Origin: Octopus sinensis
Taxonomy: Eukaryota
Direction: 5' to 3'
Assembly: GCF_006345805.1 (NCBI RefSeq)
Contig: NW_021834221.1
Coordinates: forward strand, 1-64,000
Length of the DNA: 64,000 nucleotides
Shown here: positions 18,142-43,572 of the stretch, piece by piece
Position numbering within the stretch: position 1 is the stretch's first letter
How the letters are laid out: each line of letters opens with the position of its first letter
Notes under the pieces: model-generated
What the model was told of the DNA's origin: nothing
What the model saw: only the letters and a program-made list of their open reading frames with translations
Database searches by the model: none
Made by a program: the position numbers and the translations under genes

Positions 18142-19006
18142 GTATATATGTATGTATGTATACGTATACATATATTCTTGTGTACATATATATATATATA
18201 GATGGAGATATAAATTAATACATACATACGGGCAAGAATGCATGCATGCATACGTACATGCATACATACACACTGATATACACACACATTCATGCATACA
18301 TACATACACAGAGAAACAATAAACGGTAGGTCTTCTTCTGGTATCCATATATATATAAATATATATCCTTTAAATATGCATACACCTCAATTGTATATAA
18401 TATATATTCAACTCGATTATGGAACGCCTTTTTTCATTTCCGCAGCTTTAGGTGCAAGAATTGACAATGGTGTTTGCATAAGAATATTTCTTCCAGAAAG
18501 AACTGCTACATATCCGTTATATTATTAATACCTTCATGCGTGTAAACGCTCTTAATGTGTAAGAAATTGTTCGGCACTAAAAAGTTATATAAATGCAGAC
18601 GTTTCAAGCTCGACAGCTCGTCAGAGAAACACGTGTGATATGCGTAAGTTGTGCTCTGGCCAAAAATACAGGAAACTGGTTGTCGTTGAAGAAATTATAG
18701 ATGTTGACGACTGAAGTTCGTCTGTTTGGTAGTGAAACACACAAAGTATGTGGTGGTATGTAAATAAATAAATATACTTCCGTAAATATAAGTAGAGAGT
18801 TATGAATTTTTTATTTTCGTTTATCTTAACTCGACAATATTTGCTTATTTGTTGGGCACTATTTAAATTTTCAAAATATAGATTCATATTTTTTTCTTTC
18901 CTCTCATCTGTCTCAGTCTCTGTCTGTCAGTCTTTCTTACGGATTGTATATCCGCTCGTTTGTGTGTTTGTCTGTATGTCCGTCTGTCTGTCTGTCTGTC
19001 TATGTA

Positions 19007-31894: not shown

Positions 31895-31928
<34 letters not shown>

Positions 31929-32002
31929 AATGTTGACCGCGTGTGTACCGTTGGTGATGTTTTTCCTCCGTCTTCCCTTCTCTGGATCTTTCCTTTTCCT
32001 AT

Positions 32003-32036
32003 GCTTCTGACGAACAGCTCCGCCGAAACGTTAAAC
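32003..32036 (+). ncRNA. Degenerate minimal hammerhead motif, unit 1
   Basis: GCTT-CTGACGA-ACAGCTCCGCC-GAAAC-GTT-AAAC. Core boxes are intact, stem III is the palindrome ACGT, and stems I and II are imperfect. Confidence 0.45.
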
Positions 32037-32381
32037 CCTTCTTCTTTCCTCAGCGTCCAATAATACTATATTTGTTCCACGTCCTTTTCATGTTTGGATT
32101 AACTATATATATATATAAATATATACGACGGGCTTCTTTCAGTTTCCGTCTACCACATGCACTCGCAAGGCTTCTGTCGGCCCGAGGCTATAATAGAAGA
32201 CACTTGCCCAAGGTGCCACGCAGTAAGACTGAACCCGGAACCATGTGGTTGGTTAGCAAGCTACTTACCACACAGCCACTCCTGCTGTATATATATGTAT
32301 ATATATATAATGTGACCGCGTGTGTACCGTTGGCGATGTTTTTCCTCCGTCTTCCCTTCTCTGGATCTTTCCTTTTCCTAT

Positions 32382-32416
32382 GCTTCTGACGAACAGCTCC
32401 GCTCGAAACGTTAAAC
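32382..32416 (+). ncRNA. Degenerate minimal hammerhead motif, unit 2
   Basis: GCTT-CTGACGA-A-CAGC-TCC-GCTC-GAAAC-GTT-AAAC. Confidence 0.5.
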
Positions 32417-33265
32417 CCTTCTTCTTTCCTGAGCGTCCAATAATACTATATTTGTTCCACGTCCTTTTCATGTTTGGATTAACTATATATATATATAAAT
32501 ATATACGACGGGCTTCTTTCAGTTTCCGTCTACCACATGCACTCGCATGGAATTGGTCGGCCCGAGGCTATAGTAGAAGACACTTGACCAAGGTGTCATG
32601 CAGTGAGACAGAACCCGGAACTATGTGGTTGGTAAGCAAGCTATTTACCACACAGCCACTCCTGCTGTATATATATGTATATATACATATATTTATGTAT
32701 ATATACATATATATATATACATATAGGAACATGTGAACAGGTTAATGGGGGCTTCAGGTAAACAATTATGCGTGTAAATATAAACAAGTGTGTGAATGTT
32801 TGTTCATGCATGTACACCATTTTCTTTGTTTGTTATATTCTACCATTACGTTTATTATCAAATGACTTTTGTGGCGACAAACGATACAAGGTTACTCACT
32901 ACAATGAAATATTTGGCACTCCGAAACTAAGATGTTGATGGTTCATCACTGGTTAATAAATCTTATTTTGACAGCTGTACACACCTTTGATTTGGAGGGG
33001 TTTGTTTTGCTTTTAATTTTAGTTGGGAGTGCTAAGAATTCAATAAGAATTGTATCACGTGATGTATTGAATTTGTCGAGAATATAACCTCAACGAACTC
33101 GCATGCTCACAGCCGTAGTCATTTAAATCTATGTGGCTATGAAATCTTTTTGTGGCTTTTTGTTTATTTATGTGATACGACGATTGTCAGGAGAGATTAC
33201 AGTGGTTGTTACCGGTGCATATACGTGCATGTAGGTGTATACAATATATATATATATATATATAT

Positions 33266-33590: not shown

Positions 33591-33661
33591 CATAACACCT
33601 CATCTCTTAAATATAGAACTATATGTGTGTGTGTATGCGTGTATGTATGTGTGCATGCATG

Positions 33662-33893
33662 GCACCCATCATCGACTCTATCACAGCACCGACTCCTTCA
33701 CCTGCACTTCTACCTATATAATCTACTGCATCACCTGCTCTCTCTGCCCTTCTCTATACATCGGGCAAACGGGACACCGCTACGCTGATCGGTTCGCGGA
33801 ACACCTCCGAGACAAACGACTCGGCAATGACACTCCGGTCTTGCGCCTTTTCTGTTCTACCGGTCACCCTTTGCAACACCTGTCTGTGTTCGA
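33662..33893 (+). pseudogene. Penelope-like element GIY-YIG endonuclease fragment
   Basis: Within ORF 33586..33948: FTCTSTYIIYCITCSLCPSLYIGQTGHRYADRFAEHLRD..TPV matches the FTC.S..VIY.I.C..C...YIG.T.R....RF.EH signature. Confidence 0.85.
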
Positions 33894-33899
33894 AATCAT

Positions 33900-33966
33900 T
33901 GGTCGAAAATTCCCTATACTGATCTGTCAGTTTCGGCTAATTCCGTAGCCTCATCAGTAGGGACCA
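33900..33966 (-). ncRNA. Canonical type I hammerhead ribozyme
   Basis: Minus strand reads TCCCTA-CTGATGA-GGCTA(CGGAAT)TAGCC-GAA-ACTGA(CAGA)TCAGT-A-TAGGGA. All core nucleotides are present, the three stems are perfect, and the triplet is GUA. Stem I can be extended by TGGTC/GACCA. Confidence 0.9.
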
Positions 33967-34135
33967 CTCAATTCAGCAGATTCCGAACTTAATTTTCTGT
34001 CAGTACATATGAATTCACCATAAAAATCTATGGATGATTTAGTGAATCGCTCAAGTATTTTCAGACAATTAATATAGACAGGGGATACTTAATTGTCCTA
34101 GACATGACTAGGGCGTTAGAACGGTGACCAGTAAT

Positions 34136-34441
34136 AAAGTCACAATTTTGGCTAGGAAAAAAAGTCACAATTTTGGCTAGGAAAAAAGACAATATTGGCT
34201 AGGAAAAAAGTCACAATTTTGGCTTGGAAAAGACACAATTTTGACTAGGAAAAAAGACAATATTGGCTAGGAAAAGTCACAATTTTGGCTAGGAGAAGAG
34301 TTACAATTTTGGGTAGGAAAAAGTCACAATTTTGGCTAAGAAAATAGTCACAATTTTGGCTAGGAAAAAAGGCAATATTGGCTAGGAAAAGTCACAATTT
34401 TGGCTAGGAGAAAAGACACAATTTTGGCTAGGAAAAAAGAC
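34136..34441. repeat. Minisatellite of about 13 x 22-25 bp (AGTCACAATTTTGGCTAGGAAAAA)
   Basis: Seen directly; contiguous units with no unique spacers. Confidence 0.9.
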
Positions 34442-35722
34442 AGAGGTAAGTACAGAGGTAAGTCGTAACAATCTTTAATGCGTCAAATAAAATGTTTTGT
34501 TGTAGGTCATTCGTTTCTTGAAGTTCTGAATCTCATCCAAATCAATTTTACCTTTTATACTTTCAGGACCAATAAATTTATGCTTCTTTGAAGCATTGAG
34601 ATCGATGAAATCGTCTTGCTTCTTCACGTCAAAATTGCTGACCTACCACACTGCAATGCATCAGCGTTCTGTTCGGTGTTATGTTGTTATTTTCATCAGT
34701 TATACGCCATGAAAACCAATTAACCAGTTAACCAGTTAACCGGCGTTATGACACTTCGAGCACGAGAAAATAAATTCTAACTTGATATTTTTATCTCCTA
34801 GAGGTTAACATTATTAAGAGGTGAATAAATTATATGAGGGAAATATGTATATATTAATTCTTCACACGTTCCAACAAATATATTAGTCATCAACAAGTAG
34901 TTTGGTGTTAATTGAATCATCTAATTGGTGTTAAATGAATCTCACGTTGAGATTCATTGATAGGAGGTTTCTTCGTATAATCATTTATTCTGTTTGTTTT
35001 AATCAATGAACTGGGCACATGCAGAGTCAGTCGATCAATTGTCCCCAAAATTTATTTTTTATCCAAACAGTTATGTTATAGGGGATCGTTTGTCAGGTGA
35101 TATGAGGGCAAACGTAAAGACATGCATACATTATAGTTTATAACCCTGAGGAGCTTCCACCAATTTCAGTCTACCGAATTTACTCACATGTTTTGCTTGC
35201 TAGGGACTGCAGCAATGAAAGATATTTACCCAAGCCGCCACGCTGTGAGACTTGATCGAAACCAAATGGCTGCAAAATGATCTTCTTCATCACAAAGACA
35301 CAACGGTGCCTAAAGCGGTCCATGTGTGCATTAACCGATTACGGGATAGTCTCTATAGTTCGCGTGTACAAACGTTTAAAGATCTTTAAAATGCAGATTG
35401 AGTTTGGGTCGGTCAAAAATGGCGAAATGCAAAATTAAATTTATATTTAACCGTTTGGGCCCTGACCTCATGAACCTCATTTGACCATCAACCTGGCAAC
35501 CCACCAGTCCTACGGTATAGAGCGGTGCTATAGTATGCAGAAAAATAAAGCTTTCCACCAGTAAACTGGTGTTAGGGGCTCACAAGATTAAGCATACAAC
35601 CAGAGGTAGTGAGTAAATTCTTGCCCAAATAATAATTAGCGTATGATGCAAATTAAGACAGTGGATTGGTAAAGATGAAGGAATATTTAATTAAAAGCTA
35701 TATGTAGTATGGTAGCGTTTAA

Positions 35723-37612: not shown

Positions 37613-37657
37613 TGAACTAGTACTTTCATGCATTAAATTATGCAATCTTCAGGTTCA
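37613..37657 (-). ncRNA. Minimal type I hammerhead ribozyme motif
   Basis: Minus strand reads TGAAC-CTGAAGA-T-TGCAT(AATTTA)ATGCA-T-GAA-AGTACT-A-GTTCA. It has a 5-bp stem I, U-U at the base of stem II, a palindromic stem III and a CUA triplet. Confidence 0.7.
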
Positions 37658-43519: not shown

Positions 43520-43572
43520 ATTGATGTACCTGAAGAGACCCAGAACGGGTCGAAACATGTGCCTTACCCAAT
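43520..43572 (+). ncRNA. Hammerhead motif with an aberrant cleavage-site region
   Basis: CTGAAGA-GACCC(AGAAC)GGGTC-GAA-ACATGT-G. The core and stem II are perfect and stem III is palindromic, but position 17 is G. A residual stem I is visible (GTA/TAC, ATTG/CAAT). Confidence 0.55.

What the first reader, a model, noticed from the sequence alone, without database searches (positions are those of the whole stretch)
33900..33966. Fully canonical type I hammerhead ribozyme next to a Penelope GIY-YIG fragment
Seen: on the minus strand every conserved HHR core base is present (CUGAUGA, GAAA, GUA). Stem I is 6 bp (UCCCUA/UAGGGA), stem II is 5 bp with G-C at its base and loop CGGAAU, and stem III is a true 5-bp hairpin. 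An alternative register extends stem I by UGGUC/GACCA around an 8-nt bulge. Predicted cleavage is between 33917 and 33916. The motif lies antisense to, and immediately after, a PLE endonuclease fragment. Known: PLE pseudo-LTRs carry HHRs, usually minimal ones without a stable stem III, and loop II/stem I bulge contacts speed up natural HHRs. Inference: this copy could self-cleave as a monomer, and its intactness amid decayed DNA suggests a recent insertion or selection.
Basis: partly seen in the sequence, partly recalled or inferred. Interest (0 to 1): 0.85.

Follow-up and report, generated by a model that had tools for sequence, protein, structure and literature searches.

The report
Hammerhead ribozyme of fossil circular retroelement
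A complete hammerhead (predicted self-cutting RNA) motif lies in an old, cut-down copy of a 350-base non-coding repeat that likely spread through this animal genome as a small circular RNA copied by Penelope-type transposons; the transposon fragment next to it belongs to a different element.

Summary
The type I hammerhead is real (33963-33911, minus strand; cut predicted at 33917/33916). It is not the pseudo-LTR ribozyme of the neighbouring Penelope piece. It lies in 232 bases of a dispersed, ORF-less repeat with a 350-353-nt unit, a non-LTR retrozyme. Three subfamilies keep the core unchanged and swap whole base pairs in stems I and II and in the rod outside. Of 89 places examined, 65 run past one unit and none reaches two; 62 end 3' at a microsatellite; 27 carry an inverted piece at the 5' end and none at the 3' end. 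That is the insertion signature of Penelope-like elements acting on a circular or multimeric template. The GIY-YIG piece is a 232-bp internal scrap of an abundant Neptune/Nematis-type element with its own, different minimal hammerhead; a sister copy of the retrozyme lacks it. The window copy is old (14.5% diverged outside the ribozyme), so not a recent insertion; selection on it is possible but chance suffices. All three subfamilies are predicted to block their own core by pairing it with stem III. Cleavage and expression are untested. New member of a known kind.

The parts
33911..33963 (-). Type I hammerhead ribozyme: stem I 6 bp, core CUGAUGA, stem II 5 bp with 6-nt loop, GAAA, stem III 5 bp with 4-nt loop, GUA cleavage triplet
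   Evidence: Sequence; descriptor 1 hit against 0 in 100 simulated windows; 1 difference from the subfamily-1 consensus in 53 nt, in loop III at 33925
33916..33917 (-). Predicted self-cleavage bond (3' of A17 at 33917)
   Evidence: Standard hammerhead numbering applied to coordinates; cleavage not tested
33903..33971 (-). Stem I extension 33971-33967 paired with 33907-33903 around an internal loop (candidate partner for loop II)
   Evidence: RNAfold picks it in the 81- and 106-nt contexts; unchanged in three subfamily consensuses
33891..34122 (-). Truncated copy (about two thirds of a unit, with an internal deletion of about 25 nt) of the 350-353-nt retrozyme, subfamily 1
   Evidence: Matches the unit at 33891-34081 (89%) and 34090-34122 (88%); family found
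33661..33892 (+). 232-bp internal piece of the GIY-YIG endonuclease of a Neptune/Nematis-type Penelope-like element, cut at both ends; a separate element
   Evidence: Pfam; 2142 candidates, best 90%; relatives continue on both sides with RT motifs, CX4CX2C linker, stop codon, own minimal hammerhead and (TA)n end
34123..34442 (.). Part of a dispersed element with a 22-24-bp minisatellite; in the sister locus it interrupts the retrozyme between two copies of a 9-bp target
   Evidence: TRF; junction shared only with G000:C10888; retrozyme sequence on both sides of it in L002
33622..33661 (.). TG/TATG microsatellite at the far end of the endonuclease piece
   Evidence: TRF

Best explanation
The hammerhead is the catalytic module of a 350-353-nt non-coding repeat, a non-LTR retrozyme, that was likely transcribed as more than one unit, predicted to cut itself to unit length and close into a circle, and likely pasted into (TA)n/(TG)n microsatellites by a Penelope-like reverse transcriptase-endonuclease acting in trans. 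Shown: the closed, permuted unit; no ORF; three subfamilies with an unchanged core and compensatory pairs; 3' ends at microsatellites and inverted pieces only at 5' ends; no copy ending at the cleavage site. Inferred: transcription, cleavage, circle formation, and that the helper was a PLE (which one is unknown). The window copy is a decayed secondary piece: a retrozyme insertion was interrupted by a minisatellite element, then about 550 bp of that locus (33891-34442) was duplicated and came to lie against an unrelated PLE scrap. Its ribozyme likely survived by chance.
For: Unit: direct repeats with period 351-359 in 8 of 30 loci; consensus 353 nt, 38.5% GC, circular fold -116.6 kcal/mol, z -8.3, 0 of 60 shuffles as good, longest open stretch 41 aa. 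Covariation: stem II pair is U-A in 38 and A-U in 25 of 66 copies; a stem I pair is C-G in 30, U-A in 18, U-G in 10. Three consensuses 86-95% alike: 20 of 105 jointly predicted pairs vary, 9 on both sides, 7 keep pairing, 4 break; core unchanged. Ends: subfamilies 1-2, 58 places: 47 over one unit, longest 624 nt, 3' microsatellite 42 (background 13.6% of 1160 random flanks), 5' inverted piece 16, 3' inverted 0, 3' ends within 15 nt of the cut 0; subfamily 3, 31 places: 18, 593 nt, 20, 11, 0, 0. These are the PLE insertion features in PMC8557442 (section 6). Age: star-like tree (terminal 7.4, internal 0.71), pair-keeping and pair-breaking transitions equally frequent in stems (C>T 33/405, G>A 43/462, p 0.63). 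History: sister copy L002 shares the junction and a 0.097 stem, ends in (TG)n and has no endonuclease piece.
Against: No RNA evidence and no cleavage assay. No array of two full units and no young copy was found (0 of 89 places; best copy about 92% to consensus), whereas published retrozymes are mainly tandem arrays; arrays may be collapsed in the assembly or missed, since each search scored only 40 of 322-1828 candidates. The unit shows no similarity to 14 loci of the neighbouring PLE family, so the helper is not identified. The core is less mutated than matched sites even within subfamilies (50 against 78 expected; P 0.004 by site resampling), which pure neutral decay does not give; more source lineages than the three resolved would explain it, but so would selection on some copies. 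Queries favoured long copies, so the length counts are biased upward. Microsatellites also lie at 5' ends in 33 of 89 places.
Confidence: 0.83

Rival explanations
1. Same family origin, but this copy and its sister (G000:C10888) keep a working ribozyme because the host selects for it, for example to cut a transcript that runs through the locus.
For: 0 (L002) and 1 (window) differences in 53 nt against 2-18, mean 6.1, in 62 other copies, while the flanks are typically diverged; P of 0 differences 0.0023 from site rates; the 38-nt exact pattern occurs only at these two places in the assembly; 1 of the 10 differences between the two copies falls in the ribozyme and it is in a loop; contigs from runs with three organism labels match the copy type with 0-1 differences over 76-113 nt.
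Against: The copy was picked because it is intact, out of a family with 1700-1800 candidate places per search; 5 of 62 other copies have perfect runs of 65-75 nt elsewhere in the unit, longer than the 58 of L002 and the 40 of the window; the two copies are one event; the window copy has five times the terminal branch of its sister (0.030 against 0.006) and lost both ends; no host gene was recognised (15 of 82 long open frames scanned; only the GIY-YIG piece and one sub-threshold hit); how far apart the three organism labels are is unknown.
Confidence: 0.15
2. The unit is the pseudo-LTR of another, unidentified Penelope-like element, and the copies are its 5'-truncated stubs rather than an independent circular RNA.
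For: Ends are PLE-like; the preprint 10.64898/2026.07.22.740005 reports that Xenopus retrozymes resemble PLE pseudo-LTRs.
Against: After one unit the sequence wraps round to its own start in 65 of 89 places instead of running into an ORF; the whole unit folds as a closed, self-paired circle with covariation outside the ribozyme; animal PLE hammerheads are mostly minimal (PMC4209133). Flanks were searched only with the one endonuclease piece (30 loci), not with RT profiles.
Confidence: 0.08
3. The hammerhead is the pseudo-LTR ribozyme of the adjacent GIY-YIG element.
For: They abut at 33891/33892, with an imperfect 5-of-7-base overlap at the joint.
Against: Opposite strands; together in 1 of 30 retrozyme loci and 0 of 14 other PLE loci; the sister copy lacks the piece; the PLE has its own minimal hammerhead 97-830 nt downstream in sense (9 of 14).
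Confidence: 0.02

Closest known systems
Metazoan non-LTR retrozymes (Cervera and de la Pena 2020, PMC7229834), closest the Mytilus galloprovincialis family of 350-390 bp
   Same: Canonical type I hammerhead in a non-coding, self-paired unit of about 350 nt, GC under 45%, head-to-tail continuity, many genomic copies, PLEs in the same genome; like the mussel motif it lacks part of the usual loop 1-loop 2 signature.
   Different: Here dispersed copies of under two units, old and decayed, no long arrays found; stem III is 4-5 bp rather than the 1-2 bp usual in animals (PMC4209133); PLE-type ends are measured here; expression and circles not shown. Sequence could not be compared with the mussel element (supplement unreadable).
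Schistosoma mansoni Sm-alpha type I hammerhead
   Same: 6-bp stem I with an internal loop beyond it, 6-nt loop II starting with C; subfamilies 2 and 3 end loop II in A, as in the C:A opposition described in PMC2632901.
   Different: Subfamily 1, the window's, ends loop II in U, and the internal loop starts A(A)UU rather than with U; the reverse-Hoogsteen U:A contact is not matched as described.
Minimal hammerheads in pseudo-LTRs of animal Penelope-like elements (PMC4209133)
   Same: Type I topology; same likely mobilising machinery; palindromic stem III region in subfamilies 2 and 3 would allow the dimeric fold.
   Different: Those lack a stable stem III, have an extra base after A9 and sit in the terminal repeat of an RT-EN ORF. 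The neighbouring PLE family has exactly that kind; this ribozyme does not.
Vertebrate non-LTR retrozymes as PLE derivatives (bioRxiv 10.64898/2026.07.22.740005)
   Same: Monomer-rich families, proposed PLE dependence.
   Different: That work argues from co-occurrence and pseudo-LTR similarity; here no similarity to the tested PLE was found and the argument rests on insertion ends.

Membership tests
Type I hammerhead ribozyme | Conserved core (CUGANGA, GAAA, NUH) with open stem I and closed stems II and III | tested here: met
Type I hammerhead ribozyme | Helices supported by compensatory changes | tested here: met
   Three stem I pairs and one stem II pair swap between subfamilies; stem III does not covary
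Type I hammerhead ribozyme | Loop II 3' A with 5' U of the stem I loop (common tertiary motif, PMC2632901) | tested here: not met
   Loop II ends in U in the window's subfamily; A in subfamilies 2-3. The motif is common, not universal; another contact may serve
Type I hammerhead ribozyme | Self-cleavage | not testable with these tools
   No assay; only contigs, no raw RNA reads
Rfam hammerhead families | Score at or above a family's gathering threshold | tested here: not met
   0 matches at gathering; RF00008 20.5 of 48.5 bits, RF03152 16.8 of 56.3
Non-LTR retrozyme | Non-coding unit of about 170-400 nt, GC under 45%, carrying a canonical type I hammerhead | tested here: met
   350-353 nt, GC 36-39%, longest open stretch 41 aa
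Non-LTR retrozyme | Highly self-paired as a circle | tested here: met
   Consensus z -8.3; real copy L002 z -4.2, 0 of 100 shuffles; prediction only
Non-LTR retrozyme | Head-to-tail tandem copies (dimers to multimers) | tested here: inconclusive
   Partial tandems in 65 of 89 places, some with two hammerheads (L007, L010, L026), but none with two full units
Non-LTR retrozyme | Expressed as abundant circular RNA | not testable with these tools
   No run on record as RNA held the stretch; contigs only
PLE pseudo-LTR hammerhead | Lies in sense within the terminal repeat of an RT-EN ORF | tested here: not met
   Antisense; not linked in other copies
Neptune/Nematis-type PLE (the neighbouring piece only) | C-terminal GIY-YIG with an upstream CX2-5CxxC linker, RT before it | tested here: met
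   In relatives of the piece: RT motifs about 710-810 nt upstream, CX4CX2C 57 nt upstream; Neptune versus Nematis not resolved

The most novel reading that the evidence does not exclude
This is a retrozyme lineage whose circle switches its own ribozyme off. The 5' arm of stem III repeats the ACUGA at the start of the core, so the 3' arm can pair with either. Stem III is predicted to form first during transcription, allowing the cut, and to be displaced afterwards by a helix that buries the core and the cleavage site. That blocked state holds 70-83% of the predicted ensemble in all three subfamily circles against under 2% for the active fold. It would answer, for this family, the question left open in PMC7229834 of how animal retrozyme circles avoid re-cutting, and the strand-specific ends would be direct genomic evidence that PLE enzymes copy such circles. 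The window's locus pair would be a copy the host kept working.
Probability: 0.2. Interest if true: 0.65.

Novelty: new member of a known kind. Interest (0 to 1): 0.38.

Why it matters
Animal retrozymes are assumed to be copied from circular RNA by Penelope-like enzymes, but the papers read argue this from co-occurrence and sequence likeness. This family supplies an insertion footprint (3' microsatellite, 5' inversion, read-through of the cleavage joint) and a three-step record of compensatory change, so it offers ready constructs for testing monomer against dimer cleavage, a possible built-in off-switch, and copying by a purified PLE protein. No retrozyme from a cephalopod-like genome turned up in the searches made. 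The single copy flagged is most likely a fossil and matters little by itself.

Tried and rejected
Rfam at gathering score: nothing. Expression: no RNA holder listed; one run guessed to be RNA (X1) has contigs at depth 1-5 over the ribozyme, which says nothing either way; all four runs laid are contigs, so ends and strand cannot be seen, and none of the 32 pieces shown (2085 not shown) spans the joint at 33892, so the joint is unconfirmed outside the assembly. A degenerate stem II pattern found 0 matches in metagenome and viral contigs. A whole-genome scan with the covariance model R1 was not available for this genome; in the window R1 hits only this place. Long segmental duplication or haplotig as the source of the sister copy: rejected, only 33888-34442 is shared in 39.5 of the 60.1 kb of that contig examined. 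Apparent covariation in that register (C-G to U-A) can come from two independent CpG decays and was not counted. Helper PLE by sequence likeness: no match of the unit to 14 PLE loci. Pair-keeping bias within copies: none. A first count of copy ends held duplicates and was replaced. L117 and L121 are in neither end tally; L120 is counted as L125; two unassigned copies were left out of the substitution tests. Earlier scan notes: three look-ups returned nothing.

Full report
Observation. A full descriptor finds it once in the window and never in 100 simulated windows. Rfam does not call it at gathering score and overlaps it only weakly with two hammerhead models. The GIY-YIG piece at 33661-33892 on the plus strand is real but just under Pfam's cut-off.

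The ribozyme belongs to a repeat family. The window lies on G000:C10692 of a 2.7-Gb animal assembly; I take it for an octopus-like cephalopod from recalled repeat sequences, which was not tested. Four DNA searches found copies on many contigs (322, 1828, 1714 and 1796 candidates, 40 scored each). Self-alignment shows direct repeats of period 351-359 in 8 of the first 30 loci. The consensus unit is 353 nt, 38.5% GC, has no open stretch over 41 codons and folds as a circle far better than 60 shuffles (z -8.3); the real copy L002 gives z -4.2. This fits the non-LTR retrozymes of PMC7229834 (units of 170-400 nt, GC under 45%, 350-390 bp in mussel).

The structure was under constraint in the source elements. 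Among 66 distinct copies spanning the ribozyme, 38 and 26 fall into two subfamilies and 2 are unassigned; one stem II pair is U-A in 38 and A-U in 25, and one stem I pair is C-G in 30, U-A in 18 and U-G in 10. An exact search for the core found 27 places, 0 for the reversed control; of 10 fetched, 8 were a third subfamily. The three consensuses are 86-95% alike with an unchanged core; of 105 jointly predicted pairs 20 vary, 9 on both sides (one of them broken in subfamily 2), 7 keep pairing and 4 break, including swaps in the rod outside the ribozyme. Subfamilies 2 and 3 have a palindromic stem III region, which would allow the dimeric fold; subfamily 1, the window's, does not. These swaps are a few events inherited by many copies.

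How it spread. In 58 distinct places of subfamilies 1-2, 47 copies run past one unit (longest 624 nt), 42 end 3' at a microsatellite (background 13.6%; 19 at the 5' end), 16 have an inverted piece at the 5' end and 0 at the 3' end, and no 3' end lies within 15 nt of the cleavage site; 31 end 189-218 nt after it, in an AU-rich stretch. Subfamily 3 gives 18, 20 (14 at 5'), 11 and 0 of 31. Among L003-L030, found by a query that lacked the usual 3' end, 21 of 28 still end at a microsatellite. Partial tandems, 5' inversions and microsatellite targets are the PLE insertion features in PMC8557442, and a PLE protein starts reverse transcription inside its RNA on AT-rich targets (PMC11167929). The polarity makes the hammerhead strand the template, and reading through the cut site needs a circle or an uncut multimer. 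Transcription, cleavage, circle formation and the helper are inferred; the unit has no likeness to the 14 PLE loci tested. No copy has two full units and none is young, and the queries favoured long copies.

The neighbour is a different element. The endonuclease piece belongs to a family with 2142 candidates whose copies continue on both sides: RT motifs and a CX4CX2C linker upstream, the rest of the domain, a stop, a minimal hammerhead of their own (9 of 14 loci) and a (TA)n end downstream. It lies beside the retrozyme in 1 of 30 loci. The sister copy L002 (G000:C10888) shares the minisatellite junction and diagnostic changes, runs on to a (TG)n end and has no endonuclease piece in 39.5 kb. 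In L002 the minisatellite element sits inside the retrozyme between two copies of a 9-bp target; the window has only 33891-34442 of that locus. The adjacency is therefore a later rearrangement, with at most a weak microhomology at the joint.

Age and selection. The copies form a star (terminal 7.4, internal 0.71) and pair-keeping and pair-breaking transitions are equally common, as in neutral decay. The window copy differs at 17 of 117 sites outside the ribozyme and L002 at 23 of 206, within the 5.5-21% of 62 others; 25 of those keep the core and 6 keep core and all stems. So the insertion is not recent. Against pure chance: L002 and the window have 0 and 1 differences in the 53 nt where others have 2-18 (P about 0.002), only these two places match the 38-nt pattern exactly, and the core is less mutated than matched sites across the family (ratio 0.54-0.72). 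For chance: the copy was chosen for being intact, the two are one event, and 5 of 62 copies have longer perfect runs elsewhere. Contigs from three organism labels match the copy type almost exactly, but their relatedness is unknown and one may be the source sample.

Would it cut? The 5-bp stem III favours monomer activity. Against: nearest-neighbour folding prefers, by 1.6 kcal/mol, a helix between the core and the 3' arm of stem III (63% against 2% in the window copy; 70-83% against under 2% in the three consensus circles), although stem III is predicted to form first as the chain grows. The model ignores core and tertiary contacts, so the gap is within error. Loop II ends in U rather than the 3' A of the common tertiary motif, and in Xenopus 8 of 9 predicted retrozymes did not cut in vitro. 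I put monomer cleavage of this copy at about even odds. PMC7229834 says most animal retrozyme circles leave the ribozyme free, except some mussel ones, and leaves the blocking mechanism open; the self-block here is the most novel point.

Literature seen. PMC7229834: sections 14 and 17, part 3 of 6, passages; its supplement could not be read and may list related elements. PMC4209133: parts 1-2 of 4 and a search of two supplementary files (no octopus or cephalopod; file 1 not searched). bioRxiv 10.64898/2026.07.22.740005: parts 1-3 of 5 and passages; supplements not seen. PMC8557442: passages and section 6. PMC11167929: abstract and first part of the main text. PMC6155905, PMC2632901, PMC3088659, PMC13282606: passages (the last has no 'ribozyme', 'hammerhead' or 'retrozyme'). 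Searches 'hammerhead ribozyme'+'octopus' (5 papers), 'retrozyme'+'cephalopod' (2) and 'retrozyme'+'microsatellite'+'inverted' (4) listed nothing that describes this family or its ends, judged from listings; the library lacks most subscription papers and Repbase/Dfam were not searched.

Verdict. A real hammerhead in a fossil copy of a previously unlisted retrozyme family; new member of a known kind; interest 0.38.

Noticed in passing
window 39623 region (-); L032-L034, L037-L039, L042, L043, L045: The Neptune/Nematis-type PLE's own minimal hammerhead has U instead of A at core position 6 in all 10 locus hits and in the window copy (CUGUNGA), so standard descriptors would miss it. A paper search for A6U listed one hit, in a twister paper; PMC3088659 mentions A6C once (count only). 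Activity and novelty untested.
   Followed up: partly
window 31907-32689 (+), cores at 32007 and 32386: A 380-bp tandem pair, each unit a roughly 195-bp element with a minimal PLE-type hammerhead, a (TA)n tract and part of a SINE-like repeat; the first copy has lost a base of stem II.
   Followed up: partly
window 18602-18624 (-), 37624-37652 (-), 43530-43555 (+): Further minimal hammerhead-like motifs with a paired stem II; in all, 12 CUGANGA..GAAA matches against 2.3 expected, so the window holds several PLE-type ends.
   Followed up: no
window 34123-34442; L002:870-1497; L107, L109, L110: A dispersed element with an internal 22-24-bp minisatellite, shared ends and, in L002, a 9-bp target duplication; class not determined.
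   Followed up: partly
L012 and L014 (G000:C10, 4.3 kb apart): A recent local duplication of another retrozyme copy with an inverted 5' piece; L012 keeps core and stems, L014 has lost U16.1.
   Followed up: no
window 33945-33940 with 33910-33906 (-): Loop II could form a short Watson-Crick/wobble pseudoknot with the internal loop of stem I instead of the usual contact; the bases hardly vary between subfamilies, so covariation cannot test it.
   Followed up: no
window 34443-34466 (+): A 12-bp tandem duplication right at the far end of the duplicated piece, possibly a repair scar.
   Followed up: no
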